Counted from the first letter of the stretch, positions 5,562-49,959 are shown. The stretch: 64,000 nt of DNA from Candidatus Omnitrophota bacterium (GCA_023140385.1 JAGLLT010000039.1:34381-98380), one strand, 5' to 3'. Numbers and translations: made by a program. The notes: generated by a model not told the origin, from the letters alone.

Positions 5562-5984
5562 GTGAAAAAGAGCGGATTTACTCTTATAGAGATGATGGTT
5601 GTGCTGATTATTATGGGCATTTTGGCGGGCTTGGTGACCAGTGCCACTATCAAAACTTTGCAGGACGCGAAGAAGAGCGAAGCGGAGGTAGTTATTTCAG
5701 CGGTTGCCTCAGCCTTAGCCAGATATGAGTCTGACATTGGCGATTATCCACCGGGGAACGGTTCAGGTAACGCTTTTTGGTACTACCTGCAGGATGATAG
5801 GAGCCTTGATGTTTCCTCGGCATGGAACGGGCCCTATATGACCTTTGATAATGATGATATATCAGGTAACGCGGTAAAAGACCCTTGGGGCAATGCTTAT
5901 AACTATAAGAACTACCCAGGGGTTCATAATCCCGCCTTTGTTGATATAGAGGATGGTTCCGGAGAAGATGTTAATAACTGGTGA
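5562..5984 (+). CDS. GspG-like major pseudopilin, paralog 1 (prepilin class III signal)
   Basis: KKSG|FTLIEMMVVLIIMGIL prepilin cleavage/methylation motif. GspG-like core with YESDIGDYPP...WNGPYM...DPWGNAYNY. Confidence 0.75.
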   Translation: MKKSGFTLIEMMVVLIIMGILAGLVTSATIKTLQDAKKSEAEVVISAVASALARYESDIGDYPPGNGSGNAFWYYLQDDRSLDVSSAWNGPYMTFDNDDISGNAVKDPWGNAYNYKNYPGVHNPAFVDIEDGSGEDVNNW

Positions 5985-6442
5985 GAAAGATGAAAAATAA
6001 AGGTTTTACCCTAATTGAGATGATAGTGGTTATGACTATTATCGGCATCCTGGCCGCTTTAATTTCGGCGGCGACCTTTAGGGCTATAGAGGATGCTAAA
6101 GAAAGTAAAGCGGCGGCGGCTATTTCCGCCGTAGAAGCGGCTCTGGCAATGTATGAATCTGACGTAGCAGGTTATCCTCTGCAAGCCGCCGGCGATAATG
6201 CCTTTAAATCCCATCTCCAGAATGATGATGGCGCGGTTGGCTGGAACGGCCCATATATGAACTTTATAGATGAAGACCTGGACAAGCCTGCCGCGATAGG
6301 AGGAACCAAGTATATGGATCCCTGGGGCAATGCCTACCAGTATAAATGTCCGGGTAATAATGGTGTTTATGATATCTGGTCTTGCGGTAATGACGGAGTT
6401 GATGATAGTGGCGGCGGAGATGATATTAATGCCTGGGATTAA
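5981..6442 (+). CDS. GspG-like major pseudopilin, paralog 2
   Basis: KG|FTLIEM N-terminus and the same GspG-like core. It ends ...GNDGVDDSGGGDDINAWD. Translation may begin at GTG 5981 or at ATG 5990. Confidence 0.75.
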   Translation: MRKMKNKGFTLIEMIVVMTIIGILAALISAATFRAIEDAKESKAAAAISAVEAALAMYESDVAGYPLQAAGDNAFKSHLQNDDGAVGWNGPYMNFIDEDLDKPAAIGGTKYMDPWGNAYQYKCPGNNGVYDIWSCGNDGVDDSGGGDDINAWD

Positions 6443-6471
6443 GGTTGTACTATTAAGATAAATGGTGGTTT

Positions 6472-6942
6472 ATGGTGAAAAAAGTCAGGATTAAAAGAAA
6501 TAAGCGCTTAAAAGGCTTTACACTTATAGAGATGATGTTTGTGATTGTTATTATCGGCATCCTGGCCAGTTTGATGACTACCGGAGCCTTCAGGGCTATC
6601 AGGGAGGCGAGAGAAGAGAAGGCCAAAGTTGCCATCTCGGCCATAGAGGCCGCCCTTGAGATGTACAAACTTGATGTGGGCTCTTATCCGGCGGGAGACG
6701 GCTCAGGCAACAGCTTTAAATCCCACCTGCAAAATGATGATGGCGCGGTTGGTTGGAGCGGGCCCTATATGAGTTTCAACTCCACAAACAACAGTATAAA
6801 TGATCCTTGGGATAATGCCTACCGGTATAAATGCCCGGGCACTAGTCACGGTAGTACTGAAAATCCCCTTGATATCTGGTCATGCGGCAATGATGAAGTT
6901 GATAACAGCGGCGGCGGGGATGACCTTAACACATGGGATTAA
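6472..6942 (+). CDS. GspG-like major pseudopilin, paralog 3 (long basic leader)
   Basis: Leader MVKKVRIKRNKRLKG|FTLIEMM. Its C-terminus is nearly identical to that of paralog 2. The upstream leader block is duplicated before 6972. Confidence 0.75.
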   Translation: MVKKVRIKRNKRLKGFTLIEMMFVIVIIGILASLMTTGAFRAIREAREEKAKVAISAIEAALEMYKLDVGSYPAGDGSGNSFKSHLQNDDGAVGWSGPYMSFNSTNNSINDPWDNAYRYKCPGTSHGSTENPLDIWSCGNDEVDNSGGGDDLNTWD

Positions 6943-6971: not shown

Positions 6972-7523
6972 ATGATGAGAAAAGTCAGGATTAAAAGAAA
7001 TAAATTCTTAAAAGGTTTTACCCTGATGGAAATGATGGTGGTAATTGCCATAATGTTTATTGTAGTTGCCGTAGCAATGCCCAACTTCTGGGGCGGCCGC
7101 GGTAGTAAGGAGCACAAAGGAGCCGCCAGAAGAATTGCCTCAACCTTGCAAGTTGCTAAAGGTTGTGCCGAGGCTCAGAATGTTGTTCATCACTTCCTCG
7201 CCTGGATAAACTCAGGCAACACTATCAGTATGGATATATATAAGACTACCTATGCAACCTTTCCACCCGCGAACAAGGTGGGTAAAAGCGAAAAAATGAC
7301 CCTGTCAGCCCCCTTTAATATATCAACTACCTTAGATGTTCCCAGTGATGGTAGTACCTGGGGCGCGTACTATATTAAATTCAATCCTGAGGGAAGCGCC
7401 GATGACGGTGACGCCGCCATCGGAGATGAGACCATCACTATCTGGAATACAGCTACCGGAAAGTCTATTGATATTACCATTTCAGAGGATACGGGCTGTA
7501 TCTCTATCGGAGATCTTTATTAG
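6972..7523 (+). CDS. Minor pseudopilin, GspH/FimT-like
   Basis: Leader MMRKVRIKRNKFLKG|FTLMEMM (a duplicated leader) followed by a hydrophobic helix and a 183-aa body. Confidence 0.6.
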   Translation: MMRKVRIKRNKFLKGFTLMEMMVVIAIMFIVVAVAMPNFWGGRGSKEHKGAARRIASTLQVAKGCAEAQNVVHHFLAWINSGNTISMDIYKTTYATFPPANKVGKSEKMTLSAPFNISTTLDVPSDGSTWGAYYIKFNPEGSADDGDAAIGDETITIWNTATGKSIDITISEDTGCISIGDLY

Positions 7524-7597
7524 AAGGAAAGGTTCTCTTGTATTTCTTTCCCTGAAATTTCAGCAAAATGATACAGTTATACAGCAAAATATTTTGC

Positions 7598-7627
7598 TTG
7601 ACAGTTATCCTTTTCTATTGTTAAAAT
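7598..7627 (+). promoter_or_regulatory. Candidate sigma70 promoter (TTGACA-17-TAAAAT) overlapped by the 14-bp perfect palindrome GCAAAATATTTTGC
   Basis: Read from the sequence just upstream of the PEP-CTERM gene. Confidence 0.45.
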
Positions 7628-7729
7628 AAACAAACGGGCTTTATATCTTATTTTTAACTTTCTATCTATCTTGCATGTTTGTTTAAAAGGGATTTTTCCG
7701 GCAAGATAACAAAGGCGGAAAGGAGTATT

Positions 7730-8485
7730 ATGAGAAGGTTTGTTCTTGCAATTTTATTATTATTTGTAGCTTTAAGCGTTTGTTCATTATCAAACGCCCA
7801 ACAGATTGCCCCCCGCAAATGGTCTCAACTGCCCGATATGGAGTGGGGTTTTGATGTATATTCAACAATTATGCCGTACGGTTACAGTAGTAATGTCGCT
7901 GATGACTGGCTCTGCACCAACGGACTGCCTATTACCGATATCCACTGGTGGGGTTCATACGGTGATTGGTCTATGGACGCGCGTCCGGAAAATACTATAA
8001 CCGGTTTTCAGATAGATATATTTGGCTATTATGCGCCGTACCCATTTTATATTCCTCACGCGAGATATAATCTTACTATAGAAGAAGTGAATGAGACCTA
8101 CTGCGGCTTACAGGAATATACAGGACACAGCGCATTTGAGTACTCTATTATACTTGATGAACCCTTTAATCAGGAAGAAGGAAGTACCTACTGGCTGATG
8201 ATAGCGGCTTATTTAGAAGATGGGACTTCTTATGAGTGGGGCTGGAAAACAACTGATCCTGATTCAAGGTATGGTTGCGGCGCGGTTAAATACACAGGAG
8301 ATAGTTGGGAGTGGATTCCAATTGAATACAGCGATTACGTAGATCCAAGTCATCCCTATTATGATTACGGCCCGGTTAATATGGCCTTTGAGCTGACTAC
8401 TATCCCTGAACCGGCCGCGATAATTATGCTGGGAAGTTTGGCTACCGGATTGTTCGGCATAGCAGGCATAAAAAGAAAAAGGTAA
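7730..8485 (+). CDS. Secreted Trp/Tyr-rich protein with a C-terminal PEP-CTERM sorting signal
   Basis: AGGAG RBS. N-terminal signal peptide MRRFVLAILLLFVALSVCSLSNA. The C-terminus IPEPAAIIMLGSLATGLFGIAGIKRKR* has PEP, a hydrophobic TM segment and a basic tail. Confidence 0.7.
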   Translation: MRRFVLAILLLFVALSVCSLSNAQQIAPRKWSQLPDMEWGFDVYSTIMPYGYSSNVADDWLCTNGLPITDIHWWGSYGDWSMDARPENTITGFQIDIFGYYAPYPFYIPHARYNLTIEEVNETYCGLQEYTGHSAFEYSIILDEPFNQEEGSTYWLMIAAYLEDGTSYEWGWKTTDPDSRYGCGAVKYTGDSWEWIPIEYSDYVDPSHPYYDYGPVNMAFELTTIPEPAAIIMLGSLATGLFGIAGIKRKR

Positions 8486-8566
8486 AAAAGGTTACACCTA
8501 TTTAATTCCTGACTCTAACTATAATAGCAGTCTATAAAATAGGTGTGGCCTTTTTTTCAGATAAAG

Positions 8567-9049
8567 ATGATTGATAAAGGTAAGTTAACGGGATTTACCC
8601 TGATTGAGCTTTTAGTTGTTTTGCTTATTGCCGGCGTAGTAACGGCAATAGCTGTTCCTTACTGTTGGGGCGGGTATTCAAGCGCGGAGGTTAAAGCAAG
8701 CAGTAGAACCATTGCTTCGACTTTACGGCGGGCGAAGATTAACGCCGAGGCTCAGGGTAAGCGGTACCGTGTAGACTTTACCCCTTCAGGCAGCTGTCTT
8801 GATATGGATATCTATACAGATTTAAGCAGTTCGACGCCTACCAAGGTAGGTAAAACAGAAAAAATAAAGCTAAGTTCCGCGTTTGTAATTACCACTACCT
8901 TTACTAATTCCAAAGCCCTCTTTACCCCTCACAGCACTTCCAACGGAGGCACCGTTAAAATAAAAAATTTAAAAAATGGTAAAAGTATTAAAATAACCGT
9001 CTTGTCGATTACCGCCAGAATAAAGGTTAAGGATTACGAGGAAGATTAG
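8567..9049 (+). CDS. Minor pseudopilin, GspH/FimT-like paralog
   Basis: KLTG|FTLIELLVVLLIAG prepilin motif. It is paralogous to the 6972 protein (WGG...RTIASTL...AEAQ...MDIY). The start could be GTG 8543 or ATG 8567. Confidence 0.6.
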   Translation: MIDKGKLTGFTLIELLVVLLIAGVVTAIAVPYCWGGYSSAEVKASSRTIASTLRRAKINAEAQGKRYRVDFTPSGSCLDMDIYTDLSSSTPTKVGKTEKIKLSSAFVITTTFTNSKALFTPHSTSNGGTVKIKNLKNGKSIKITVLSITARIKVKDYEED

Positions 9050-9158: not shown

Positions 9159-9557
9159 ATGAGAAAAAGTAAGGGTTTTACGCTTTTAGAGATTGTGATT
9201 GCCCTGGCCATTCTGGTGATAGGTTTGGTTGGTATTTTGAGCCTCTTTCCGGTAGGTTTTCAGGCCTCCCGCAGAGCCTGTATGCTGACAGAGGCCACCA
9301 TTCATGCTCAGCAGGAGATAGAGAATTTTAAGCGGTTGGGGTATAGTCATCTTGATACAACTTTTACTGATGGGGCAGCTTCTAAGGTTGACGGGACGGC
9401 TGGTTGGACTGACTTTGGCGATGGTATTGAGTGTCAAGTTACTGTTACAGAGATAAACCCGCCCGGCGGCCTCAAAAGCGTTGAAGTTGAAATTCGATGG
9501 AAGGAGAAAGGAAGCTTTAAAAGTGAGACATTTATTACGTATATTGCCGAAAAATAA
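9159..9557 (+). CDS. Minor pseudopilin, GspI/PilV-like
   Basis: MRKSKG|FTLLEIVIALAIL prepilin motif. The protein is 132 aa. Confidence 0.6.
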   Translation: MRKSKGFTLLEIVIALAILVIGLVGILSLFPVGFQASRRACMLTEATIHAQQEIENFKRLGYSHLDTTFTDGAASKVDGTAGWTDFGDGIECQVTVTEINPPGGLKSVEVEIRWKEKGSFKSETFITYIAEK

Positions 9558-10143
9558 AAAAGGCTTTACCTTAATTGAAGTTTTAATAGCCAGCGTCATT
9601 CTGGTGATAGTGATGGGAAGCATGACTTTGGTATTTATCGAAGCCAACCGCGCCTGGACCCAGAGTGAGGCCAAACTGCAGGTTTATCAAAACGCCAGGG
9701 AAGCCCTCAGTCGGATGACAAGAGAACTGGCCTGCGCCTATCAGAGTTCATCGTCTACTACTCTGGAGAAGTTTAACTGGGATGATAGCCAGAAAAAGCT
9801 TGCTTTTACCGCCGCCTTTAATGTTGTTTATGACACCGATGAGTACGATTTAACTAAATTAGGCTACTGGCTTGACACTACGACTATGACACTGAAGAGA
9901 TATAAGAAGGATTATGGCGGCGGCGGCGGCGGAACGTGGAACCCGATAGCGGAAAATATTAAAACTTTAGCTTTCAAATATTACGATCATAAATTAGATA
10001 TTTGGGTCAGCGTTTGGGATCCTGCTGGTGCTACTCCCAGAGATTATTTGCCCAGGGCGGTTGAGATTACCATAACTGCCGAAGATAAACAGGGAAGGTT
10101 TACCAGAACTTTCGTAGATACAGTTTATATACCGATGTCTTAA
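9523..10143 (+). CDS. Minor pseudopilin, GspJ/PilW-like
   Basis: KNKKG|FTLIEVLIASVIL prepilin motif, about 200 aa. GTG 9523 has a GGAGAAAGGA RBS and overlaps the end of the upstream gene. Confidence 0.55.
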   Translation: MRHLLRILPKNKKGFTLIEVLIASVILVIVMGSMTLVFIEANRAWTQSEAKLQVYQNAREALSRMTRELACAYQSSSSTTLEKFNWDDSQKKLAFTAAFNVVYDTDEYDLTKLGYWLDTTTMTLKRYKKDYGGGGGGTWNPIAENIKTLAFKYYDHKLDIWVSVWDPAGATPRDYLPRAVEITITAEDKQGRFTRTFVDTVYIPMS

Positions 10144-10232
10144 TTTAATTTTCCCATTAGCGTGAAAGAAAGCCCCGAAGCCGCTCTTCCTTAGCTTAAG
10201 CAGGCCGGTAAAAAAAATTAATTAAAAGTTGT

Positions 10233-10262
10233 TGATTAAATATAGAAGGTGTTGTACAATAT
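10233..10262 (+). promoter_or_regulatory. Candidate promoter upstream of pilMN (TTGATT-17-TACAAT)
   Basis: Read from the sequence. Confidence 0.35.
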
Positions 10263-10309
10263 TACGGCGGGATTTGACTAACTTGAACTTTTAATAAACT
10301 GGTATATTT

Positions 10310-11965
10310 ATGGCAACGATAAAAAATTTAATCGGATTAGATATAGGCGGCAGCTCTGTCAAGCTTGTTAAATTTAAAAAAGTAAGAAATAAAATTCAGC
10401 TGGAAAAAGCCAGGGCTATAGAGCTAAAAGACGCGAAGTCTCTTCCCGCGGCCATAGCCGCTTTATTGAAAAGCGAAAAGATTCACACCTCAAAAGTTGC
10501 CGTATCCATTTCCGGCCAGTCAGTTTTTACGCGCTATGTTAAACTGCCAAAAATTTCCCAGAAAAAAATTGAGCAGGTAGTAAAATATGAAGCTCAGCAG
10601 CAAATTCCTTTTCCCATAGACAAGGTTATCTGGGATTATCAACTATTCGAAAATTCAAAGTCTCCTCAGTTAGAGGTCTTTCTTTCCGCTGTAAAGAAAG
10701 ATATTATTGACAACATCTACCGCCAGGTTTCTCAGGTTAAAGGCCTGGATGTTGTTTCTATGCAGGCGGCTCCCGTCGCTCTTTACAACATACTTAAGTT
10801 TAGCGGTGAAGTTAAAAATGACGCTATCATTCTTGACTTTGGGGCGAAAATAACCAATGTTGTTATTGCCAAGGGCAAGCAGATATGGATTAGAAGTATT
10901 CCTATAGGCGGTGATGATTTAACAAAAGCCATAAGTAAGCAGATGAAGACGGGGCCTGAGCAGGCAGAGGCCATGAAGAGAAAAGAAGGCATTATCCTTG
11001 CCGGAGCTACGGGGGATGAAGAGTTGACCCCGAGGTCTGATCTTATTTCCAAGGCTATCAGCCCCGTACTTACAGACCTGTTAGCGGAAATTATGCGCTC
11101 TATCAGTTATTATAAGTCTCAGTTTGATAAAACGGCCGCTTTTCAGGAGATTCTTCTGACGGGGGGCGCTTCAAAGATTATGTGCGTCGAGAGATTTTTT
11201 GAGCAAAACTTAAAAATTAAAACCCGCAAAGTTAATCTCTTAAAAGGCTTTGTTGTCAACAAATACATGAAGGCAAACCTTGATGTCATAGAGGACAGGC
11301 TGGGAGTGGCCATGGGGCTGGGGCTGCCAGCCGTCCAAACACCTGTCATAGAGATTAACCTGATATCCAGAGAACAAAGAAAGCTGAAGGAGTTCGGCAA
11401 GAAAGAGTTTTACATAATTGCCTCTGAGATTGTGCTTTTGGGCATTTTTCTGATGTTATCTTTTTTCTGCTCTCAGTCGAAAGAGTTAAGCCAAAGAAAC
11501 CTGCTGGCCATAACCGGCGAGATGGATAAGTACCGCGGAAATCAACGCTCCGTTTACGCGCTTCACGATCAAAACAAAGATGTTGAGGCAAAGCTGGATT
11601 TTCTCGGCGGCCTTATTTACCGAAAGAGGTTCTGGCTTGATGTAATAGCCGAAATAAACGCTATTGTGCCTAAAGAAGCCTGGTTGACAAAGTTAACCAC
11701 TGATCTCAGCCGGGAAGCAATAATTATTGAAGGAAAAACAACGGGGCCGTTTGATACCGTTAAAAGCATAAAAGAAAATTTGTTAAAATTAAATTATTTT
11801 TCTGAGGTGGAAACACTCAGGGCGGACCGCCCCTCCCCTCAGGAAGAGGAAGAGTTAGAAGAGTATAATATTATATTTACATTGAAGTTAAAATTGAAGA
11901 AACCCTCCCCGGCTTATTATGATAGAGAGAAAGAAGATCTGATTGAAAGGCATATGGTGAAATGA
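10310..11965 (+). CDS. pilMN: PilM-PilN fusion protein (actin-like ATPase-fold PilM fused to bitopic PilN)
   Basis: An N-terminal IGLDIGGSSVKLV actin-fold segment of about 340 aa is followed by IEINLISREQRK, a TM helix and a PilN-like periplasmic domain. The reading frame is continuous. Confidence 0.75.
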   Translation: MATIKNLIGLDIGGSSVKLVKFKKVRNKIQLEKARAIELKDAKSLPAAIAALLKSEKIHTSKVAVSISGQSVFTRYVKLPKISQKKIEQVVKYEAQQQIPFPIDKVIWDYQLFENSKSPQLEVFLSAVKKDIIDNIYRQVSQVKGLDVVSMQAAPVALYNILKFSGEVKNDAIILDFGAKITNVVIAKGKQIWIRSIPIGGDDLTKAISKQMKTGPEQAEAMKRKEGIILAGATGDEELTPRSDLISKAISPVLTDLLAEIMRSISYYKSQFDKTAAFQEILLTGGASKIMCVERFFEQNLKIKTRKVNLLKGFVVNKYMKANLDVIEDRLGVAMGLGLPAVQTPVIEINLISREQRKLKEFGKKEFYIIASEIVLLGIFLMLSFFCSQSKELSQRNLLAITGEMDKYRGNQRSVYALHDQNKDVEAKLDFLGGLIYRKRFWLDVIAEINAIVPKEAWLTKLTTDLSREAIIIEGKTTGPFDTVKSIKENLLKLNYFSEVETLRADRPSPQEEEELEEYNIIFTLKLKLKKPSPAYYDREKEDLIERHMVK

Positions 11966-12744
11966 ATTTCTATATAAAACTGCTAAAAAAGAATTTGTTT
12001 GCCTTTATTTTTATGGGTGTACTTTTAATAGCTATTATTATTTCAGCCGGTGTTTTTACGGCGCTTCTGGCCGGCAAGGCTGGTGTTGAAAATAAGGTTA
12101 AAGGAGAGTTGGTTCTCCGAGAGAACCTTACGATGGCAAAGAAAGACGCTCCTACTCTTGAGTGGATTAGCTACCTGACGAAAAAGAATGAGGCGCTTGA
12201 TAAAATATATAACGGCCTTATGGAAAAAATTGACGGGCCGGCCGTAAAGATGCCCGTGGAAGTGATGGAGTCCTTAAAGTTTAAGGAAAAGATATTTGAA
12301 GTTCAAAAAGATCTTAGAAAAGAGGCCGCCGGCAAACAGTTGGAGTTTAAAGATAAGGCTGTATTCTTAGGTTTTAAAGAGTATGAAACCAAGATTCCGC
12401 GTGATAAAGAGGTTCCAAACCTGACTAAACAGCTGGAGATCATAGAAGAGTTGATATCATTGATGTTTGAAAGCGAAATTGAAACCATTGAAGATATCGA
12501 ACTTCTTAAGTTTAATGATGGAGCCATTAAGGAAAAGAAAGATGAATTTAGGTACCGGGTCTTTCCTGTAAGGCTGGAGATTACTTCAAGCGTTAAAAAT
12601 CTGGCCTGGTTTTTCTTCAGGCTGTCTGAGTCGGACTTTATTTTTATGCCGGAGGAGCTAAAGATAGACTCTATGCCGGACTTAAAAGATAGAGTTAAGG
12701 GTAATTTTGTTATTTCCACTATTATTTTTTTGACAGACAATTAA
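11962..12744 (+). CDS. PilO-like bitopic inner-membrane pilus alignment protein
   Basis: ATGA overlap with pilMN. The protein has an N-terminal TM helix and a coiled-coil periplasmic domain. It is called PilO-like from its size and position. Confidence 0.45.
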   Translation: MNFYIKLLKKNLFAFIFMGVLLIAIIISAGVFTALLAGKAGVENKVKGELVLRENLTMAKKDAPTLEWISYLTKKNEALDKIYNGLMEKIDGPAVKMPVEVMESLKFKEKIFEVQKDLRKEAAGKQLEFKDKAVFLGFKEYETKIPRDKEVPNLTKQLEIIEELISLMFESEIETIEDIELLKFNDGAIKEKKDEFRYRVFPVRLEITSSVKNLAWFFFRLSESDFIFMPEELKIDSMPDLKDRVKGNFVISTIIFLTDN

Positions 12745-14622: not shown

Positions 14623-14664
14623 ATTCAGCTATTATCAACCAAAACAACCTGTAGAGTGCAAGCT

Positions 14665-15858
14665 ATGATAAAAAGAATTACTATTTGCGTTTTTCTAAGC
14701 ATCCTGGCCATAAATTCACTGTCTTTTGCCGAAGATAGTATGACCATTAAAGAGTATCTGGAGGAAGCGCTCCCGCTTCAAAAAGACAGAAAGATAGTCT
14801 TGGACAGGACTACCGGTATTCTCACCATAACAGATACCCCGACTAACCACAAGTTAATCAGGAAGCTTATCAAAGAGTTTGATGTCGGCCCTTCACAGGT
14901 TATGATTGAAGCCAGGTTCGTGGAGGTGAAGGTGAGTAACCTGGAGGAGTTAGGGGCAGAGTTTTACTGGTATCAGGCGGGTGAGCCGGAGAATGATAAG
15001 ATACTTGAAGGTTTGTCAGTGGGAGACGCGGCGCAGATTACTGATGATTTTGGTTATAGTGATCCTACTTATTACGCGACTACTCTCGATGGTATACAGT
15101 GGGGAAGGGCAGATGACTACGGAGAATATCAGCATTTTCCTCAATCGGGCTATGGAATGGACTTTTTTATCGGCAAGACAGGCTATCACGGTAACTACTT
15201 GAGGGCTTATATCCACGCGCTGGAGCAAAAAGGCAAGGCCAATACGCTCTCAGCGCCCAAGATAGCCACCCTCTCCGGACAGATGGCCAGTATGGAGGTA
15301 AGCCGGGTGTTTCCTTATGTCAGCGAGGTAGAGTTGGAGAACTTGGGGACGGCCGATCACCCTATCTGGTGCCTTAAAAAGACGGTAGAGGAGAAAATGA
15401 TGGGTATCTCGCTTGAGGTGACGCCGTATGTCGCCAAAGGCAGTAAATATATCACCCTTGACCTTCACCCCGAGGTTAACGTTATGCTTGATCAGAAGTC
15501 CATCAGGCCGCCAGTTACCACAAGCTACCTTACTTATTATTGGCATGGGAGTGACGAAGGTTATGAGCGATATACATATACCAGTACCGTTCCCGGCGTG
15601 CCTGATTCCGTTGGCTGGCCTACGGTTGACACCCGCTCTACCCAGACAACTGTGGTTACCAAAAGCGGAAGGACTATTATCTTGGGCGGGATGATAAAGG
15701 AGGAGGAAAAGGTTTACCGTAAAAAGGTACCTTTTTTAGGCAGTATTCCGCTTTTAGGCAACTTGTTTAAGTACAAATATATTGATAAGGAAAAGACAAA
15801 TCTCCTTATCTTTATCACAGCTACTTTAATTACTCCCGAGGGTAAGGAAATAAAATAA
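14665..15858 (+). CDS. Short secretin (N3 domain + secretin core), paralog A
   Basis: Signal peptide. N3-like segment TGILTITDTPTNHKLIRKLI...QVMIEARFVEV. C-terminal secretin signature VPFLGSIPLLGNLFKYK...NLLIFITATLI. Confidence 0.75.
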   Translation: MIKRITICVFLSILAINSLSFAEDSMTIKEYLEEALPLQKDRKIVLDRTTGILTITDTPTNHKLIRKLIKEFDVGPSQVMIEARFVEVKVSNLEELGAEFYWYQAGEPENDKILEGLSVGDAAQITDDFGYSDPTYYATTLDGIQWGRADDYGEYQHFPQSGYGMDFFIGKTGYHGNYLRAYIHALEQKGKANTLSAPKIATLSGQMASMEVSRVFPYVSEVELENLGTADHPIWCLKKTVEEKMMGISLEVTPYVAKGSKYITLDLHPEVNVMLDQKSIRPPVTTSYLTYYWHGSDEGYERYTYTSTVPGVPDSVGWPTVDTRSTQTTVVTKSGRTIILGGMIKEEEKVYRKKVPFLGSIPLLGNLFKYKYIDKEKTNLLIFITATLITPEGKEIK

Positions 15859-15859
15859 T

Positions 15860-17023
15860 ATGAAAAAGATAAAGAGTTATCTAATATTAATTTTTTCATT
15901 AAATATACTATTATCCGGCAGCTACTGCGCGGGTGAGACCATAAAGGATTATTTGGAGGAGGTTTTGCCTTATCAGGAGGGCCGAAGGATAGTTATAAAT
16001 ACGGCCACCGGAGTTTTGACTATTACCGACACGCCCACTAATCATAAACTGATTAGAATGCTGATAAAAGAGTGGGATGTCGGGCCGCGTCAGATTTCCA
16101 TTGAGGCTAAATTTATTGAGCTTAGAGAGGGTGTCATTGATGAAATGGGCATTGAGTGGTACGGGACAAGAAGTGATACTCAGTACCAGGTGGGAGTAGA
16201 AAGAAGAAGAAAAAAACATAATTTTTACATTGGTGACGGTCCCCAAAGAGGTACGAATGATGAGGGAACTCCGGTAACGGTTCCGCCTGCTTATGACGAG
16301 AATATCTCCGGCGCCGAAGAGGCCTTTGATTACAGGTATGACGCCTGGGCGTCTCCTCCATGGAGCGGTACAGAGTGGGGCGCGCCCAATCAGCCGGCAG
16401 GTGTTGGTTTGTGGGTAGGCAAAAGTTCTATGTCGGGCAGCGGTTTATTCGGCTACCTGAAGGCTTTGGAGTCGACAAGTAAAGTAAATGTTTTATCCTC
16501 ACCGAGAGTTACCACCCTTTCCGGCCAGATGGCTAATATTGAGTTGGCTGTGACAGCGCCTTACGCTTCTAGTGTAGATTTAACCGATACAGGCAGGTCT
16601 GCGTTTGGCCAGTATGAGACTTATGAAATTGAGGAGAAAAAGACAGGTGTTTTTTTAGAGGTGACGCCTTCGGTTGCCGAAGGCGGCAACATTATTACTC
16701 TTGATCTGCACCCTGAGGTAAGCGAGGTAGTAAGGAAGGTTCCCCTTTCAAGCAGTGATCAGTTTCCTGAGTATCTGGGCTGGCCAATTGTTGATACCCG
16801 CTCTATGCAGACAAGTATTACCATAAGAAGCGGAGAGACGATTGTTATCGGCGGTTTGATGAGGGATGATGAGGTAGTCACGGAAAGAAAGGTTCCTTTT
16901 TTAGGAAATATCCCCATTTTAGGGAATTTATTTAAGTATAAGTTAAAGAGCAGGGAAAAGACAAATCTGGTTATCTTTTTAAAGGCGACTCTGGTATCCG
17001 CGGAGGGTGAGGAGTTAAAGTAA
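15860..17023 (+). CDS. Short secretin (N3 domain + secretin core), paralog B
   Basis: Signal peptide. N3-like segment TGVLTITDTPTNHKLIRMLI...QISIEAKFIEL. C-terminal secretin signature VPFLGNIPILGNLFKYK...NLVIFLKATLV. Confidence 0.75.
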   Translation: MKKIKSYLILIFSLNILLSGSYCAGETIKDYLEEVLPYQEGRRIVINTATGVLTITDTPTNHKLIRMLIKEWDVGPRQISIEAKFIELREGVIDEMGIEWYGTRSDTQYQVGVERRRKKHNFYIGDGPQRGTNDEGTPVTVPPAYDENISGAEEAFDYRYDAWASPPWSGTEWGAPNQPAGVGLWVGKSSMSGSGLFGYLKALESTSKVNVLSSPRVTTLSGQMANIELAVTAPYASSVDLTDTGRSAFGQYETYEIEEKKTGVFLEVTPSVAEGGNIITLDLHPEVSEVVRKVPLSSSDQFPEYLGWPIVDTRSMQTSITIRSGETIVIGGLMRDDEVVTERKVPFLGNIPILGNLFKYKLKSREKTNLVIFLKATLVSAEGEELK

Positions 17024-17463: not shown

Positions 17464-18297
17464 ATGATGGCTCTAAAAAAATATCTTGTTGTTCACCTAA
17501 CTGTCTTATTAGCCTGTAGTACGGTTTACGCCTTTGATGACCTTTCTTCCGGCCTAAGCGGCCATTATGCTTCAATGAACTTCTCCGTCCGCGCGACGAC
17601 TGTCGGAAAGGCCAGGGTAATAGGCGAGAAATCAGAAAGGTACTATAAAAGACTCTTAAAAAAATTAAGATACGGCGGTATGCTGAAAAAGAAGTGCCGT
17701 ATCTATATTTATAGTAACCATGAAGCATACATACAGTCTCTGCGTTCTGCCGGCATAAAGATACCGGCGTGGTCGGGAGGATGCCATTTACCGAGAAGGC
17801 ACTATGAGTTCGGATATCCTGTGGTCTGCGGATTTATAGAAAAGAGGCTATTAACCGAGGTTTTACCGCATGAGTTAACGCACGCTATATTCGCGGAATT
17901 TGTGTATGGTAAGAGAATTATAGAAAAACGCCTTTCTCCTTTGCCGCTCTGGATTGATGAAGGTATGGCCGTTTATATGCAGGAGAGGTCTGATTATAAG
18001 CAGGTAGTAAAACAGGCCGTCAGCGAAGGTGGTTATATCAGGTTGAAAGATCTCTTTATATTAAAAAGGTATCCGAAAGATGAAGCAAAGCTAAAGTATT
18101 TTTACGCCCAATCACCCAGCCTGGTTGATTTTTTGCTGAATAAGTATCCGGGCGGTAAGTTTATGTCTTTGGCCAAAAAATCGGTCTTTTCCGCCAAATC
18201 CGATGAAGAGATTTTAACTTCGGTTTATTACGGCAAAATAACAAGCATCAGCCAGATGGAGAAGCTCTGGATAAAGTTCGTTAAAGAGAGATATTAA
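17464..18297 (+). CDS. Secreted putative zinc metallopeptidase, peptidase-MA-like (HExxH...E)
   Basis: Signal peptide. HELTH motif followed about 30 aa later by WIDEGMAVY, a gluzincin-like third zinc ligand. Confidence 0.5.
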   Translation: MMALKKYLVVHLTVLLACSTVYAFDDLSSGLSGHYASMNFSVRATTVGKARVIGEKSERYYKRLLKKLRYGGMLKKKCRIYIYSNHEAYIQSLRSAGIKIPAWSGGCHLPRRHYEFGYPVVCGFIEKRLLTEVLPHELTHAIFAEFVYGKRIIEKRLSPLPLWIDEGMAVYMQERSDYKQVVKQAVSEGGYIRLKDLFILKRYPKDEAKLKYFYAQSPSLVDFLLNKYPGGKFMSLAKKSVFSAKSDEEILTSVYYGKITSISQMEKLWIKFVKERY

Positions 18298-18319: not shown

Positions 18320-19120
18320 TTGAAAAAAACCATTTTTTTTATATTATTAATCGGTGTTTTATTATCTCAGCCGGCCGCGGCAAATGGGAAGAAAGCGGGC
18401 AGTTTGGGATTGCCCCAGGTTTTAAAGAGGATGCACTTTGTTATTTACCACAACGACCGCTCCTATGCCAATAAGGTGAGCTGGAAGGCGGAGTACAGCT
18501 ATAAAAAGATTTTAAGACATTTTAATGTTCAGGGGTTTCGCCCCTGGGAAGGAAAAGAAAAATGCGTTATATATCTTTTTGAAAACAGAGCTGAGTATAT
18601 AAAAAAATCCAAGGCCCCTGAATGGTCAGGCGGATGCGCCAGAGATAATCCTCCGCGCCTCTATATTTATAAAGGGGCAGAAGATTTGCTAAAAAATACA
18701 CTTCCGCATGAAATAACCCACCTGATTTTTCATGAGTTAATTCCCAGGAGCAAGATTCCCTTATGGCTTGATGAAGGAATGGCTCAATATGAGGAAGATA
18801 AATGGGGTTCGGGTGTTTTTAAGGATTATCTTAAAGATAGAGTGAAGAAGGGTATCTATATCAGTTTTGATGAACTTTTCAGTATGAAGCGTTATCCTTC
18901 CGGCGATGAGAAGATAAGCCTGTTTTACGCGGAGTCGGCGAGCATTATTGATTACCTGAGGAAGAAGCAGATTGCCAGCCTTTTCGGTAAATTTTTGTTG
19001 AAAATCAGGCGCGGGAAGCCGGTTGGTAAAGCCCTTTCGGAAACCTATTATCCCAAGTTTAAATATGGAGTTGCTGATTTAGAGAGAAAATGGAAAAAGT
19101 ACGTAGTAAACAAATATTAG
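18320..19120 (+). CDS. Secreted putative zinc metallopeptidase, paralog of the 17464 gene
   Basis: Signal peptide. HEITH followed by WLDEGMAQYEE. It aligns with the upstream paralog along its whole length. Confidence 0.5.
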   Translation: MKKTIFFILLIGVLLSQPAAANGKKAGSLGLPQVLKRMHFVIYHNDRSYANKVSWKAEYSYKKILRHFNVQGFRPWEGKEKCVIYLFENRAEYIKKSKAPEWSGGCARDNPPRLYIYKGAEDLLKNTLPHEITHLIFHELIPRSKIPLWLDEGMAQYEEDKWGSGVFKDYLKDRVKKGIYISFDELFSMKRYPSGDEKISLFYAESASIIDYLRKKQIASLFGKFLLKIRRGKPVGKALSETYYPKFKYGVADLERKWKKYVVNKY

Positions 19121-34024: not shown

Positions 34025-35338
34025 TTGTTAAAAACATTTACCGGCGGCATCCGTCTCGCGGGACATAAAGAAGCGACCGCGAACAGCTCAATAGAAATCC
34101 CATCTTTACCCGAGCAGGTTATTATTCCTCTTATTCAGTATGGCGGCAGGTTGTGTGAACCATTAGTAAAAACCGGCGAGAGAGTAAAGGCCGGACAGCT
34201 TATCGGTTTTTCTCAAGACTCTTTGTCGGTTGCTGTGCACTCGAGCATTTCAGGAAAGGTGGCGCGGATAGGCGAGTTTGCTCATCCTGATTTTGAAAAG
34301 GCCAGGGCTATTTTGATAGAATCTGACGGGTTAGACGAAAAGGCGCGGGAGGTTTCGGAAAAAGATTATCAAAGTTTATCGAAGGAAGAATTATTAAATC
34401 GTATAAGAAATGCCGGAGTTGTAGGGATGGGCGGCGCTTCTTTTCCGACTCATGTTAAATTAAACCCGCCGCGTAATAAAAAGGTTAACTTTTTTGTCGT
34501 AAATATGTTTGAGTGTGAGCCCTATATAACTACCGATTATCGTTTAGCAATAGAAAGATGCGAAGAAATTTTATCCGGCGTAAATATTTTTTTAAAAATT
34601 CTTGAGGTAGAAACCGCCTATATTGCCATAGGGGCTAATAAAAAAGAGGCTCTGGATATTTTAAAAGAGAAGACCGCTAAATTTGAGCGGATAAAGATAG
34701 CGGCCCTTAAGCCAAAATTTCCTCAGGGTGAAGAAAAGTGTTTGATAAAGGCGGTGTTAAACAAAGAGGTTCCCCGCGGCAAACTGCCTTATGAGGCGGG
34801 GGCTATTGTTTGTAATCCCCAGACTATAATTACGGTTTATGAAGCTGTTTGTTTAGGCAAGCCTTTGTATGAAAAGGTGATAACGGTTACGGGAAAAGGT
34901 ATAAAAAAACCGGGGAATCTGAAGGTTAGAATTGGAACACTGTTAAAAGATATTATAGAGTATTCCGGCGGAGTATTTGAAGAGGAGATGGAGGTAATCT
35001 TTGGCGGGCCTATGATGGGGAGGGCGCAGACTGATATCAATGTGCCCGTTGTTAAAGGAACGTCGGGAATAATTTTTCTTCCCGCGAAAAGCTTAGACCT
35101 TTCGAAAGAAAGCGCCTGCATCAGGTGCGGCAGATGTGTTGAAGTCTGCCCTGTCAGGCTGCTTCCCCTGGAAATTAATAAGTTAGTAAAGAATAAGAAG
35201 TGGGAAAGATTAAACGCTTATCATATTTCTGAGTGTATGTTGTGCGGAGCCTGTGCTTATGTCTGTCCTTCCAAGATTCCTCTTGTGCAAAGATTAAAGC
35301 TGGGGCAGAAGATTACTAAAAGATTGCAAAAAAAGTAA
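34025..35338 (+). CDS. rnfC: Rnf/Rsx electron transport complex subunit C
   Basis: The N-terminus GGIRLAGHKE...GFSQDSLSVAVHSSISGKV and the NADH/FMN domain are present. Two 4Fe-4S motifs are CIRCGRCVEVCP and CMLCGACAYVCP. Confidence 0.8.
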   Translation: MLKTFTGGIRLAGHKEATANSSIEIPSLPEQVIIPLIQYGGRLCEPLVKTGERVKAGQLIGFSQDSLSVAVHSSISGKVARIGEFAHPDFEKARAILIESDGLDEKAREVSEKDYQSLSKEELLNRIRNAGVVGMGGASFPTHVKLNPPRNKKVNFFVVNMFECEPYITTDYRLAIERCEEILSGVNIFLKILEVETAYIAIGANKKEALDILKEKTAKFERIKIAALKPKFPQGEEKCLIKAVLNKEVPRGKLPYEAGAIVCNPQTIITVYEAVCLGKPLYEKVITVTGKGIKKPGNLKVRIGTLLKDIIEYSGGVFEEEMEVIFGGPMMGRAQTDINVPVVKGTSGIIFLPAKSLDLSKESACIRCGRCVEVCPVRLLPLEINKLVKNKKWERLNAYHISECMLCGACAYVCPSKIPLVQRLKLGQKITKRLQKK

Positions 35339-35411
35339 TATCAAAAGTAGTATGAAAAATCGTAAGGAAACCGAGTAATTTTAAAGGAGTTATATTTATT
35401 ATAAGGAGAGA

Positions 35412-35576
35412 GGGAAATCCTAAATACTAAATCCGAAACACTAAACAAATCCAAATGTCCAAAATACAAAATCCAAAACAGTTTAGAACATTTAGATTTT
35501 GAATTTAGAATTTGTTTAGAATTTAGAAATTAGGGCTTAGAGTTTTTAAACGTATAAAGGGTAAATAGTTTTGACA
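35412..35576. repeat. Intra-operon repeat element copy 1 (imperfect long palindrome + conserved tail gagtttttaaacgtataaagggtaaatagttttg)
   Basis: It shares the gggaaatcctaaatactaa head and the tail with 37699-37888. Internal arms ctaaat.../...atttag are inverted. Confidence 0.6.
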
Positions 35577-35578
35577 AT

Positions 35579-36547
35579 ATGCAAGAAACCGAACAGGAAG
35601 GCGAAATGAGTTTAAATCTAACTACCAATGAACCGCCGTACTTAAAAAGTAGTGATAATACAAGAAAGGTAATGCTGACTGTTATCGCGGCGCTTCTTCC
35701 CGCGGTTATTGCCGGTACCTATTTTTTCGGGCCCAGAGCTTTTTTATTAATTGTCGTTTGCGTAAGTACCTGCGTGGTTTCAGAGTTTTTAATTCAGAGG
35801 CTAAGAGGAGTTAAGACAACCATCGGAGATTTAAGCGCCGTGCTTACAGGTTTATTGCTGGCTCTGGTTTTACCTCCCGGACTGCCTCTCTGGGCGGCTG
35901 TTCTGGGCGCTGTGGTTTCGATATTTTTAGGTAAGCAGATTTTTGGAGGATTGGGCGCGAATATATTTAATCCCGCTTTAATAGGCAGAGCATTTCTAAC
36001 GGCTACCTTTCCTGTTATGATGACCGCCTGGACTAAGCCCTTTAGCCTGGAGGCTGTAACGACGGCTACACCCCTGGGACTGATGAAGTTTGAAGGTGTG
36101 GGAACATCGGTAAGCGCGCTTCTTATGGGAAACACAGCAGGCTGTATAGGTGAGACATCGGCCATAGCTTTAATTCTGGGAGGAATATTTCTTTTATTCA
36201 GGAAGGCGGCCGACTGGAGAATTCCCCTGGGGTATTTGAGCGCCGTAGCTGCTTGCTCCTTCCTTTTAAACTGTTTTAATCCGTCAAAATATCCTTCCGT
36301 GAACTTTGAAATTTTGGCGGGAGGGCTTTTAATAGGCGCTATCTTTATGGCTACTGATCCCGCGACCTCTCCCATTACGAAAAAGGGAAGATGGATATTT
36401 GCCGTAGGCTGCGGGTTGATAACTATAATTATCAGACGCTGGGGAGGACTGCCGGAAGGTGTTATGTATTCTATATTATTTATGAACGCTTTAAGGCCGT
36501 TAATAGACAGATATACCAGGCCTGTTTGTTTTGGAGGCGCGCTGTGA
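35579..36547 (+). CDS. rnfD: Rnf complex subunit D (NqrB-like)
   Basis: Polytopic membrane protein with the FMATDPATSP flavin-attachment motif. Confidence 0.85.
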   Translation: MQETEQEGEMSLNLTTNEPPYLKSSDNTRKVMLTVIAALLPAVIAGTYFFGPRAFLLIVVCVSTCVVSEFLIQRLRGVKTTIGDLSAVLTGLLLALVLPPGLPLWAAVLGAVVSIFLGKQIFGGLGANIFNPALIGRAFLTATFPVMMTAWTKPFSLEAVTTATPLGLMKFEGVGTSVSALLMGNTAGCIGETSAIALILGGIFLLFRKAADWRIPLGYLSAVAACSFLLNCFNPSKYPSVNFEILAGGLLIGAIFMATDPATSPITKKGRWIFAVGCGLITIIIRRWGGLPEGVMYSILFMNALRPLIDRYTRPVCFGGAL

Positions 36548-37711: not shown

Positions 37712-37888
37712 ATACTAAGCACTAAATACTAAACAAATCCAAATATCCAAAATACAAATGACCAAAACAAAGACACTTAAGGTTTATAACATTTGAGCAT
37801 TAGAATTTTGAAATTATTTAGGATTTAGATATTAGGATTTAGAGTTTGTTTAGAGTTTTTTAAACGTATAAAGGGTAAATAGTTTTGG
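37699..37888. repeat. Intra-operon repeat element copy 2 (starts within the last codons of rnfE)
   Basis: Same head and tail as copy 1. The central region is a divergent imperfect palindrome. Confidence 0.6.
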
Positions 37889-37918
37889 CAGTACGAAAAA
37901 AGGTGTGAAGGTTAAGAT

Positions 37919-49837: not shown

Positions 49838-49959
49838 GTGGGTAGGGCGAAACGCCTGAAAAGGTGAAGTTTGCCCTGGTAAAAGTATTAATTATGTCCT
49901 CTTTTGCGGGTTTAAGAAGGCATAGTAGATATAGACCAATGGGAAAGGAGGTGAAGAAG

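What the first reader, a model, noticed from the sequence alone, without database searches (positions are those of the whole stretch)
7730..8485. PEP-CTERM (exosortase-sorted) protein embedded between minor pseudopilin genes
The protein has a clear signal peptide, a Trp/Tyr-rich ~220-aa body with no recognisable domain, and a textbook PEP-CTERM tail (IPEPAAIIMLGSLATGLFGIAGIKRKR*). It sits in the operon position where the tip pseudopilin GspK normally lies. An exosortase substrate encoded inside a type IV filament operon suggests either cargo or an adhesin for this machine. It could also mark cross-talk between the exosortase and pilus systems. This combination is not a described arrangement.
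Basis: partly seen in the sequence, partly recalled or inferred. Interest (0 to 1): 0.6.

Follow-up and report, generated by a model that had tools for sequence, protein, structure and literature searches.

The report
PEP-CTERM surface protein inserted in pilus operon
A small secreted surface-protein gene from a large, widespread family (DUF7901 with a PEP-CTERM sorting tail) sits, with what look like its own promoter and terminator, between two duplicated minor-pilin genes in one Omnitrophica species; related genomes lack it there, so it looks like a recent insertion rather than a part of the pilus machine.

Summary
The ORF at 7730-8485 (+) is real. It has a Sec-type signal peptide, a Trp/Tyr-rich body and a PEP-CTERM tail that passes TIGR02595 (19.2 bits, cut-off 16).

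- The body is Pfam DUF7901 (112.7 bits), a family of over 7,000 cluster representatives found as small PEP-CTERM proteins or as repeats in giant surface proteins.
- The gene lies between two paralogous GspH-like genes, not at the GspK position.

Four orthologous operons from relatives have H1 and H2 adjacent (57-68 nt) and no DUF7901. In the other DUF7901 loci examined, none lies inside a pseudopilin operon.

The gene has the best sigma-70-like site of the region, a Shine-Dalgarno sequence and a strong terminator-like hairpin (-29 kcal/mol, z = -5.6).

Best reading: a lineage-specific insertion of a self-contained surface-protein gene, fixed in this species (seven assemblies besides the window). 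A functional link to the pilus is unsupported but not excluded. This operon also lacks the ~800-aa GspK-like gene that relatives carry after GspJ.

The exosortase could not be checked. Interest is low to moderate.

The parts
6972..7523 (+). GspH-like minor pseudopilin H1, the upstream flank of the insertion
   Evidence: N_methyl 26.7 bits; TIGR01708 GspH partial, E = 1.8e-10. It is a paralogue of H2 (38 % identity, E = 2e-23). The orthologue in L093 (3739-4272) is 46 % identical.
7536..7577 (+). Possible remnant of the ancestral H1-H2 spacer (TCTTG...ATGATAcAGT). Suggestive only.
   Evidence: It aligns with the conserved TTGCCT-N17-TATAGT element of the relatives' 57-68-nt H1-H2 spacers, but with a longer spacing.
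7598..7627 (+). Sigma-70-like promoter candidate, TTGACA-18-TAAAAT with a TG extension
   Evidence: It is the best match of the 5-kb region, 11 of 12. Sites of at least 11/12 are expected about 0.1 times per 5 kb on both strands, and about 0.002 times in this 206-nt gap on the + strand.
7719..7725 (+). Shine-Dalgarno sequence AAAGGAG, 4 nt before the ATG
   Evidence: Read directly from the sequence. It supports ATG 7730 over the upstream TTG at 7679. Public gene calls also give 251 aa.
7730..7798 (+). Sec-type signal peptide (aa 1-23, predicted cleavage SNA|QQ)
   Evidence: Sequence inspection only. The AF2 model has a helix at 2-21 followed by a low-confidence linker. Homologues vary here and start to align at the conserved KWSQLPD.
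7817..8398 (+). DUF7901 domain (aa 30-223), a predicted jelly-roll beta-sandwich
   Evidence: PF25470, E = 2.9e-32, 112.7 bits, profile positions 2-205 of 205. Conserved motifs KWSQLPD, ADDWxCxxGLPITDIHWWGSY, YWL, WGW and MAFELTT. AF2 pLDDT 87.4, all-beta. Only weak PDB fold matches, TM about 0.4.
8399..8485 (+). PEP-CTERM sorting signal (aa 224-251: IPEP, TM helix, KRKR) and the stop codon
   Evidence: TIGR02595 scores 19.2 bits against a cut-off of 16. P226 and E227 are invariant and P228 nearly invariant in 34 homologues. The tail flavour LGSLATGLFG is shared with other PEP-CTERM proteins of Omnitrophica loci.
8484..8558 (+). Intrinsic-terminator-like hairpin: 20-bp stem, A-run before and T7 run after
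   Evidence: RNA fold -29 kcal/mol, z = -5.62, 0 of 200 shuffles fold as well. Inverted repeat I2. It is unique in the window. The consensus scan missed it because of its long loop.
8567..9049 (+). GspH-like minor pseudopilin H2, the downstream flank of the insertion
   Evidence: N_methyl 25.5 bits; the GspH Pfam hit is weak. 53 % identical to L093 4341-4817. In all four relatives it lies 57-68 nt after H1.
9159..10143 (+). GspI-like (9159-9557) and GspJ-like (9523-10143) minor pseudopilins
   Evidence: N_methyl hits on both; T2SSJ 35.6 bits on the second. 70 % and 57 % identical to their L093 orthologues.
10144..10309 (.). Empty GspK site: a 166-nt spacer where relatives carry a ~800-aa GspK-like gene plus a 313-388-aa gene
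   Evidence: L093 6313-8697 (T2SSK 24.9 bits against 24.2; HHH_3 56.4 bits), L095 8749-11178 and L098 4947-7364 are mutually 32-38 % identical. No homologue exists in the 64-kb window (tblastn E > 0.5).

Best explanation
The gene encodes an ordinary member of the DUF7901 / PEP-CTERM family.

Inferred pathway, by analogy with the PEP-CTERM/exosortase model:
- The protein is exported by Sec.
- It is held in the inner membrane by its C-terminal PEP-TM-KRKR tail.
- The tail is processed by an exosortase encoded elsewhere in the genome.
- The protein ends up as a jelly-roll, probably ligand-binding, component of the cell surface or exopolysaccharide layer.

Its position in the pilus cluster is a lineage-specific insertion. 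A self-contained unit (promoter, ribosome-binding site, ORF, terminator) landed in the short spacer between the two GspH-like genes. In relatives that spacer holds a conserved promoter-like element, so it is probably a boundary between transcription units. The insertion has become fixed in this Omnitrophica species.

The gene is not a conserved component, tip subunit or dedicated cargo of the type IV filament machine.

Shown here: family membership, tail model score, absence from orthologous operons, non-association of the family with pilus genes, and the presence of the promoter-like and terminator-like signals.

Inferred: exosortase processing, surface location, binding function, and the direction of the event (gain here rather than four losses).
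For: - Family: PF25470 at 112.7 bits and TIGR02595 at 19.2 bits, above its cut-off of 16. All 34 aligned homologues share signal peptide + DUF7901 + PEP tail. The family has 7,255 representatives at E <= 1e-3.
- Usual context of the small form: tandem arrays with other DUF7901 and CBM96 PEP-CTERM genes (L001, L009, L010, L011, L025, L041, L042).
- Other form: 2-7 repeats in giant proteins, with dockerin, Ig and GEVED domains.
- In the 91 loci screened (several are duplicates of one contig), only L008, the window's own species, has the gene in a pseudopilin operon.
- Orthologous collinear operons L093, L095, L096 and L097/L098 (GspF 68 %, PilMN 62 %, secretins 66-67 % for L093) have H1-H2 adjacent and no DUF7901.
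- Autonomy: an 11/12 sigma-70-like site in the 206-nt upstream gap, a Shine-Dalgarno sequence, and a -29 kcal/mol hairpin with a T-run starting at the stop codon.
- GC and GC3 (0.433 / 0.405) are within the operon's range. The tail flavour LGSLATGLFG is shared with Omnitrophica PEP-CTERM proteins, so the gene is native to the lineage.
- The fold is a generic jelly-roll, not a pseudopilin.
Against: - Same-strand insertion exactly among the minor pseudopilins, fixed in every assembly of the species, is compatible with co-option.
- If the hairpin terminates efficiently, H2-I-J have no obvious promoter of their own. Only 8 nt separate the T-run from the H2 ATG, and no site was found there. Transcription must therefore read through, which couples the gene's expression to the minor pseudopilins.
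- The same operon has lost the GspK-like gene. That could be a coincidence or part of a remodelling of the tip.
- The polarity (gain versus loss) rests on four relatives plus family-wide context, not on a rooted phylogeny.
- The exosortase was not found.
- The sigma-70 consensus may not apply to Omnitrophota.
Confidence: 0.7

Rival explanations
1. Functional recruitment. The DUF7901 protein has become a cargo or a surface-displayed adhesin of this type IV filament/T2SS-like machine. After exosortase processing it crosses the outer membrane through the operon's secretins. It may functionally compensate for the lost GspK-like tip protein.
For: - The gene is co-oriented and embedded among the minor pseudopilins, and fixed in the species.
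- The operon uniquely lacks the GspK-like gene present in three relatives.
- No separate promoter for H2-I-J is visible after the hairpin, which implies read-through coupling.
- Precedent exists for other C-terminal sorting tags. GlyGly-CTERM and MYXO-CTERM proteins reach the surface through the T2SS (PMC11980579).
- The outer-membrane route of PEP-CTERM proteins is still only proposed (PMC1569441).
- Marginal adjacencies occur elsewhere: a PilT-like gene right after a DUF7901-PEP gene in L033, and a secretin upstream in L052.
Against: - None of four orthologous operons carries it.
- No other family locus examined is in a pseudopilin operon.
- The gene has its own promoter-like and terminator-like signals.
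- It has no prepilin motif, no T2SSK domain and no pseudopilin fold, so it cannot be incorporated as a pseudopilin.
- A single lineage gives no statistical support for linking the gain with the GspK loss.
Confidence: 0.12
2. The main consequence of the insertion is regulatory and polar. The cassette, placed between the ancestral H2 promoter and the H2 start codon and ending in a strong hairpin, attenuates or rewires expression of H2-I-J. Together with the loss of GspK, it forms part of a remodelling or decay of the minor-pseudopilin tip module in this lineage. The encoded protein is functionally unrelated to the pilus.
For: - A conserved TTGCCT-N17-TATAGT element lies in the relatives' H1-H2 spacer.
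- A degraded copy may lie upstream of the cassette in the window.
- The strong hairpin ends 8 nt before the H2 ATG.
- The GspK-like gene and its downstream neighbour are missing.
Against: - H2, I and J remain intact ORFs, 53-70 % identical to their orthologues.
- The spacer alignment is weak.
- Terminator efficiency is unknown.
- Three major pseudopilins, the ATPases and two secretins are intact, so the machine looks functional.
Confidence: 0.1
3. The tail is not processed by an exosortase in this organism. It acts simply as a C-terminal membrane anchor that holds a periplasm-facing beta-sandwich protein on the inner membrane.
For: - No exosortase lies in the 64-kb window or near the small DUF7901 genes examined.
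- The Pfam PEP-CTERM model is below its cut-off, and the TIGR02595 margin is modest (19.2 vs 16).
- One Omnitrophica homologue has PEL instead of PEP (P0004).
Against: - P226 and E227 are invariant across 34 homologues from several phyla.
- A lineage-specific tail flavour is shared by unrelated protein families. Haft et al. describe within-species tail similarity of this kind for PEP-CTERM proteins (PMC1569441).
- Exosortase genes are typically not next to their substrates. This is my own knowledge of the many-to-one sorting systems.
Confidence: 0.08

Closest known systems
PEP-CTERM / exosortase (EpsH, XrtA) protein-sorting system (Haft et al. 2006, PMC1569441; PepA floc proteins)
   Same: An N-terminal signal peptide, a low-homology secreted body and an extreme C-terminal PEP + TM helix + basic cluster. 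It passes TIGR02595. Homologues occur as multi-copy paralogous arrays, and the tail flavour is lineage-specific.
   Different: The exosortase of this genome was not seen. The gene lies in a type IV filament operon rather than in an EPS locus or a substrate array. No RpoN/PrsK-PrsR-type regulatory signals were sought.
Pfam PF25470 (DUF7901) proteins
   Same: A full-length, high-scoring match (112.7 bits). All conserved motifs are present. The ~250-aa signal peptide-DUF7901-PEP-CTERM architecture matches that of 33 aligned homologues.
   Different: It is the only member seen inside a pseudopilin operon. The usual contexts are tandem DUF7901/CBM96 PEP-CTERM arrays, or repeats inside giant dockerin/Ig/GEVED-containing proteins.
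GlyGly-CTERM/rhombosortase and MYXO-CTERM/myxosortase substrates that need the T2SS for surface display (PMC11980579; Sah et al. 2020, cited there)
   Same: A tripartite C-terminal sorting tag on a Sec-exported protein in a diderm. The outer-membrane crossing step needs some machine, and the gene is physically near T2SS-like genes here.
   Different: The tag and the sorting enzyme are different. T2SS dependence has not been shown for any PEP-CTERM protein in the papers read. Here the link is a single-lineage gene adjacency only.
GspK / tip minor pseudopilin of T2SS and type IV pili
   Same: Only the neighbourhood (H, I, J) is shared, plus the fact that this operon lacks its GspK-like gene.
   Different: It has no prepilin N-terminus, no T2SSK/HhH domain and no pseudopilin fold. 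It is 251 aa, against about 800 aa for the relatives' GspK-like protein. It lies between H1 and H2, not after J.
T2SS substrates encoded next to their gsp operon (e.g. PulA with pulC-O in Klebsiella; SslE/YghJ with gspC-M in E. coli). This is my own knowledge and was not checked here.
   Same: A secreted or surface-anchored protein gene physically linked to secretion-machine genes.
   Different: Those linkages are conserved and experimentally tied to secretion. This one is absent from all four orthologous operons.

Membership tests
PEP-CTERM sorting domain (TIGR02595) | HMM score at or above the curated cut-off | tested here: met
   19.2 bits against a cut-off of 16, residues 225-251.
PEP-CTERM sorting domain (Pfam PF07589) | HMM score at or above the gathering cut-off | tested here: not met
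   13.3 bits against 20.7. This model is reported to detect only 22 % of TIGR02595 hits (PMC1569441).
PEP-CTERM sorting domain | Tripartite tail at the extreme C-terminus: PEP motif, hydrophobic helix, basic cluster | tested here: met
   IPEP / AAIIMLGSLATGLFGIAGI / KRKR-stop. P226 and E227 are invariant in the family. AF2 predicts a helix at 228-250.
PEP-CTERM sorting domain | N-terminal signal peptide | tested here: met
   MRR + a 14-residue hydrophobic core + SNA|QQ, by inspection. No signal-peptide predictor was available.
PEP-CTERM / exosortase system | An exosortase (EpsH/Xrt family) encoded in the same genome | not testable with these tools
   There is none among the window's polytopic proteins and none near the homologues checked. 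The rest of GCA_030638025.1 cannot be read here.
PEP-CTERM / exosortase system | Several PEP-CTERM paralogues per genome with a shared tail flavour | tested here: inconclusive
   Only one PEP tail occurs in the 64-kb window. The related Omnitrophica MAG locus L001 has four adjacent genes with tails ...LLGSLATGLFG..., like the window's.
DUF7901 (PF25470) | Full-length HMM match above the gathering score | tested here: met
   E = 2.9e-32, 112.7 bits against 24, profile positions 2-205 of 205. The precomputed hit on the identical protein P0001 agrees.
Pseudopilin / GspK (type IV filament subunit) | Prepilin-type N-terminal cleavage/methylation motif (TIGR02532 / PF07963) | tested here: not met
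   No hit on this protein, while all seven neighbouring pseudopilins hit. My regex found the motif in all seven neighbours but not here.
Pseudopilin / GspK | T2SSK domain or pseudopilin fold | tested here: not met
   No T2SSK hit. The model is an all-beta jelly-roll with no pseudopilin among its PDB matches. The relatives' true GspK-like protein does hit T2SSK and HHH_3.
Conserved component of this type IV filament operon | Presence at the same position in orthologous operons | tested here: not met
   Absent from L093, L095, L096 and L097/L098, where H1 and H2 are 57-68 nt apart.
T2SS/T4P-dependent cargo | Secretion or surface display that depends on the machine | not testable with these tools
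   No sequence signature defines T2SS substrates. This needs an experiment.

The most novel reading that the evidence does not exclude
In this Omnitrophica lineage a PEP-CTERM protein has been captured by a type IV filament/T2SS-like operon. It is expressed together with the minor pseudopilins by read-through. After exosortase processing it is delivered through the operon's secretins, functionally replacing the lost ~800-aa GspK-like tip or adhesin protein. This would be the first genomic pointer to how PEP-CTERM proteins cross the outer membrane, parallel to the T2SS dependence of GlyGly-CTERM and MYXO-CTERM proteins.
Probability: 0.08. Interest if true: 0.7.

Novelty: new member of a known kind. 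Interest (0 to 1): 0.27.

Why it matters
As it stands, this is a clean example of an accessory surface-protein gene inserted at a transcription-unit boundary inside a pilus cluster. It warns against reading function from a single-genome adjacency.

It would matter more if the coupling proved real. How exosortase substrates cross the outer membrane has been open since the system was described in 2006. The related sorting tags GlyGly-CTERM and MYXO-CTERM have since been tied to the T2SS.

DUF7901 is a large family (over 7,000 representatives), uncharacterised and missing from the searchable literature. Its fixed pairing with PEP-CTERM, and its repeat form in giant surface proteins, make it a reasonable target for characterisation as a binding module.

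Tried and rejected
- A sequence-profile search of the PDB found nothing (best E = 0.49).
- The literature search for DUF7901 returned 0 papers. Omnitrophota + exosortase returned one irrelevant paper. Omnitrophota + type IV pili returned nothing bearing on this operon.
- I looked for an exosortase in the window by hydropathy. The only polytopic proteins are GspF and an apparent Rnf-type block.
- I scanned 10 polytopic ORFs near small DUF7901 genes against NCBIfam. None is an exosortase.
- I looked for insertion scars: direct repeats at the cassette ends, hairpin copies elsewhere in the window, and DNA similarity of the flanks to other DUF7901 loci. None was found.
- Aligning the window's two gaps to the relatives' H1-H2 spacer gave only a weak, suggestive match on the left side.
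- Rejected: foreign origin by composition. GC and GC3 are in range.
- Rejected: the longer TTG start at 7679. The Shine-Dalgarno sequence precedes ATG 7730, and the public gene calls give 251 aa.
- Rejected: lipoprotein. The LSVC sequence is a poor lipobox, and the Cys is not conserved in the family.
- Rejected: assembly artefact. The same arrangement appears in seven other assemblies.
- The window's genome is not among the species representatives searched, since the best hit was 35-38 % identical. The genome-wide exosortase and PEP-CTERM census could therefore not be done.

Full report
**1. The observation**

- The ORF at 7730-8485 (+) is intact and encodes 251 aa. AAAGGAG lies 4 nt before the ATG, and public gene calls use the same start.
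- The N-terminus MRRFVLAILLLFVALSVCSLSNA|QQ has the layout of a Sec signal peptide. This is by inspection only.
- The body is Trp/Tyr-rich: W 5.5 % and Y 11 %, against 0.7 % and 3.5 % in 21 other proteins of the window.
- The tail fails Pfam PF07589 (13.3 vs 20.7). Haft et al. report that PF07589 detects only 22 % of TIGR02595 hits (PMC1569441).

Two statements of the finding are wrong.
- The body is not domain-less. Residues 30-223 match Pfam PF25470 (DUF7901) over the whole profile at 112.7 bits.
- The gene is not at the GspK position. The local order is GspE/PilB-like, PilT-like, GspE-like, GspF, three GspG, GspH-like H1, [this gene], GspH-like H2, GspI-like, GspJ-like, PilM-PilN fusion, three further proteins, and two secretins. 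H1 and H2 are paralogues (38 % identity, E = 2e-23).

**2. What the protein is**

- Homologues at 28-49 % identity nearly all share the same ~250-aa architecture.
- In an alignment of 34 of them, KWSQLPD, ADDWxCxxGLPITDIHWWGSY, YWL, WGW and MAFELTT-IPEP are conserved. P226 and E227 of the PEP motif are invariant.
- A profile search of 1.84 billion cluster representatives finds 7,255 members at E <= 1e-3 and 1,026 at E <= 1e-30. The top scorers are giant proteins with 2-8 matched stretches.
- In such giant proteins DUF7901 is repeated 2-7 times and combined with dockerin, Ig and GEVED domains. It is therefore an extracellular module.
- AlphaFold2 with the family alignment gives a confident all-beta model (pLDDT 87.4, pTM 0.79).
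- Foldseek against the PDB gives only weak jelly-roll matches at TM about 0.4: phage baseplate and tail-tip modules, ephrin-receptor ligand-binding domains and concanavalin A. No pseudopilin appears.
- No solved relative is detectable by sequence, and no paper mentions DUF7901.
- The family occurs in Verrucomicrobiota, Planctomycetota/Phycisphaerae, Kiritimatiellia, Lentisphaerae, Armatimonadota, Anaerolineae, KSB1, Sumerlaeota and Omnitrophica.

**3. Context of the family elsewhere**

- The small PEP-CTERM form typically sits in tandem arrays with further DUF7901 genes and CBM96 PEP-CTERM genes. This holds for L001 (an Omnitrophica MAG), L009, L010, L011, L025, L041 and L042.
- I screened the 91 loci then held, several of which are duplicates of the same contig. 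The screen used an HMM of the family, a prepilin-motif regex that recovers all seven pseudopilins of the window's operon, and phmmer with the window's machinery proteins.
- Only L008, the window's own species, has the gene in a pseudopilin operon.
- Marginal adjacencies exist:
  - a divergent prepilin/SBP_bac_10 gene in L011;
  - a PilT-like gene after the DUF7901 gene in L033;
  - a secretin upstream in L052;
  - isolated prepilin-type genes 0.3-6 kb away in Planctomycetota/Kiritimatiellia loci.
- From my own knowledge, prepilin-type genes are very numerous in PVC genomes, so isolated neighbours of this kind can arise by chance.

**4. The orthologous operon in relatives**

- A PilMN search of metagenome contigs and a GspJ homologue search recovered four collinear operons from relatives.
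- L093 is the best-characterised relative: GspF 68 %, G1-G3 52-58 %, H1 46 %, H2 53 %, I 70 %, J 57 %, PilMN 62 %, secretins 66-67 % and PolA 63 % identical. The others are L095, L096 and L097/L098.
- In all four, H1 and H2 are adjacent, 57-68 nt apart, and there is no DUF7901 gene.
- That short spacer contains a conserved TTGCCT-N17-TATAGT element preceded by TG. It is probably an internal promoter for H2-I-J-K, which would make the spacer a transcription-unit boundary.
- The window's arrangement is not an artefact. NCBI GCA_030638025.1 (contig DAOWFJ010000038.1, Candidatus Omnitrophica MAG) and the other independent ENA and Logan assemblies are 99.95-100 % identical over the 2,078 nt from H1 to H2. 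L101, which is truncated, matches over the 1,085 nt it contains.

**5. Anatomy of the insert**

- The 206-nt gap upstream contains the best sigma-70-like site of the 5-kb region, TTGACA-18-TAAAAT with TG, 11 of 12. About 0.002 such sites are expected by chance in that gap.
- Starting at the stop codon there is a 20-bp-stem hairpin flanked by an A-run and a T7 run. It folds at -29 kcal/mol with z = -5.6, and 0 of 200 shuffles fold as well. It is unique in the window and ends 8 nt before the H2 ATG at 8567.
- The unit therefore looks self-contained: promoter, Shine-Dalgarno sequence, ORF and terminator.
- GC and GC3 are unremarkable.
- The tail belongs to a flavour, PEPxTMxLLGSLATGLFGxAGx[RK][RK]K, shared by DUF7901, CBM96 and other proteins in Omnitrophica-type loci. 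The gene is thus native to the phylum.
- No direct repeats or flank homology mark the insertion. A weak remnant of the relatives' spacer element may lie at 7536-7577.

**6. Interpretation**

- The most parsimonious reading is that a self-contained DUF7901/PEP-CTERM gene was inserted between H1 and H2 in the lineage leading to this species.
- Its product is, by analogy with the PEP-CTERM/exosortase model, a Sec-exported, exosortase-processed surface or matrix protein with a binding-type jelly-roll.
- Nothing in comparative genomics ties it to the pilus.

I cannot exclude co-option, for three reasons.
- If the hairpin terminates well, H2-I-J have no visible promoter and must be expressed by read-through.
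- The gene is fixed in the species.
- This operon alone lacks the ~800-aa GspK-like gene and the 313-388-aa gene after it, which L093, L095 and L098 carry between GspJ and PilMN. The L093 protein scores T2SSK 24.9 bits (cut-off 24.2) and HHH_3 56.4 bits, and the three are mutually 32-38 % identical. The window has a 166-nt spacer there and no homologue in 64 kb.

The protein, however, has none of the defining features of a pseudopilin.

**7. Relation to what is known**

- C-terminal sorting tags other than PEP-CTERM are experimentally linked to the T2SS. GlyGly-CTERM and MYXO-CTERM proteins reach the surface through it (PMC11980579).
- For PEP-CTERM proteins, crossing of the outer membrane was only proposed (PMC1569441).
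- A conserved PEP-CTERM/pilus linkage would therefore be interesting. A single-lineage adjacency that is contradicted by four orthologous operons and by the rest of the family is weak evidence.

**8. Limits**

The window has no candidate, and the 10 polytopic ORFs checked near small-form homologues include none.
- The species is not in the genome collection searched.
- Two fold libraries were unavailable.
- The polarity of the two events rests on four relatives, without a rooted tree.

**Verdict**

The gene is a new member of a known kind in an unusual but probably incidental location. Interest is 0.27.

Noticed in passing
window 10144-10309; L093 6313-9887; L095 8749-12287; L098 4947-8312: The window's operon lacks the ~800-aa GspK-like gene (T2SSK + HHH_3) and the following 313-388-aa secreted protein. 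Three relatives carry both between GspJ and PilMN. No homologue exists anywhere in the 64-kb window.
   Followed up: yes
L093 4273-4340; L095 7014-7070; L096 6785-6852; L097 7004-7060; window 7536-7577: The short H1-H2 spacer of the relatives holds a conserved TTGCCT-N17-TATAGT element preceded by TG. It is probably an internal promoter for H2-I-J-K. The window may retain a degraded copy upstream of the inserted gene.
   Followed up: partly
window 14656-15858 and 15860-17023: Two tandem secretin genes, about 40 % identical to each other, each with Secretin_N + Secretin. The pair is conserved in the relative L093.
   Followed up: partly
window 10310-11965 and 11962-12744: A PilM-PilN fusion protein (PilM_2 plus a C-terminal PilN domain) is followed by a protein with a precomputed Pfam Amuc_1100 family hit at the PilO position. 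This points to a PVC-type type IV filament cluster. The cluster also has two MshEN+T2SSE ATPases and a 356-aa PilT-sized ATPase.
   Followed up: partly
window 49864-50373 and 50494-50904: Two further prepilin-type (N_methyl) genes lie far from the operon, with C-terminal ...DGHV... endings. I recall this ending from the DUF1559/H-X9-DG pseudopilin-like proteins of PVC bacteria; that recollection was not checked here.
   Followed up: partly
L001 210-3459; L009; L010: A lineage-specific PEP-CTERM tail flavour, PEPxTMxLLGSLATGLFGxAGx[RK][RK]K, is shared by DUF7901, CBM96 and other proteins in tandem arrays. One copy (P0004) has PEL instead of PEP.
   Followed up: partly
window 17464-18297 and 18320-19120: A pair of paralogous Peptidase_MA_2-family secreted proteins lies directly downstream of the secretins and upstream of polA. 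The pair is conserved in the relative L093 (54 % and 71 % identity).
   Followed up: no
window 5562-6942: Three tandem GspG-type major pseudopilin genes. Two of them end in an acidic Gly/Asp-rich tail (SGGGDD[IL]N[AT]WD). The triplet is conserved in all the relatives.
   Followed up: no
window ~34025-38506: A block of polytopic membrane proteins and an Fe-S protein that looks like an Rnf-type complex, judged from TM counts and sequence ends only. It was not scanned against any family library.
   Followed up: no
L033 4627-5514 and 5566 onward (Armatimonadota): A small DUF7901-PEP-CTERM gene is followed 52 nt later by a PilT-like ATPase gene (E = 6e-116 to the window's PilT-like protein). This is the only other adjacency of the family to a pilus ATPase seen.
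   Followed up: no
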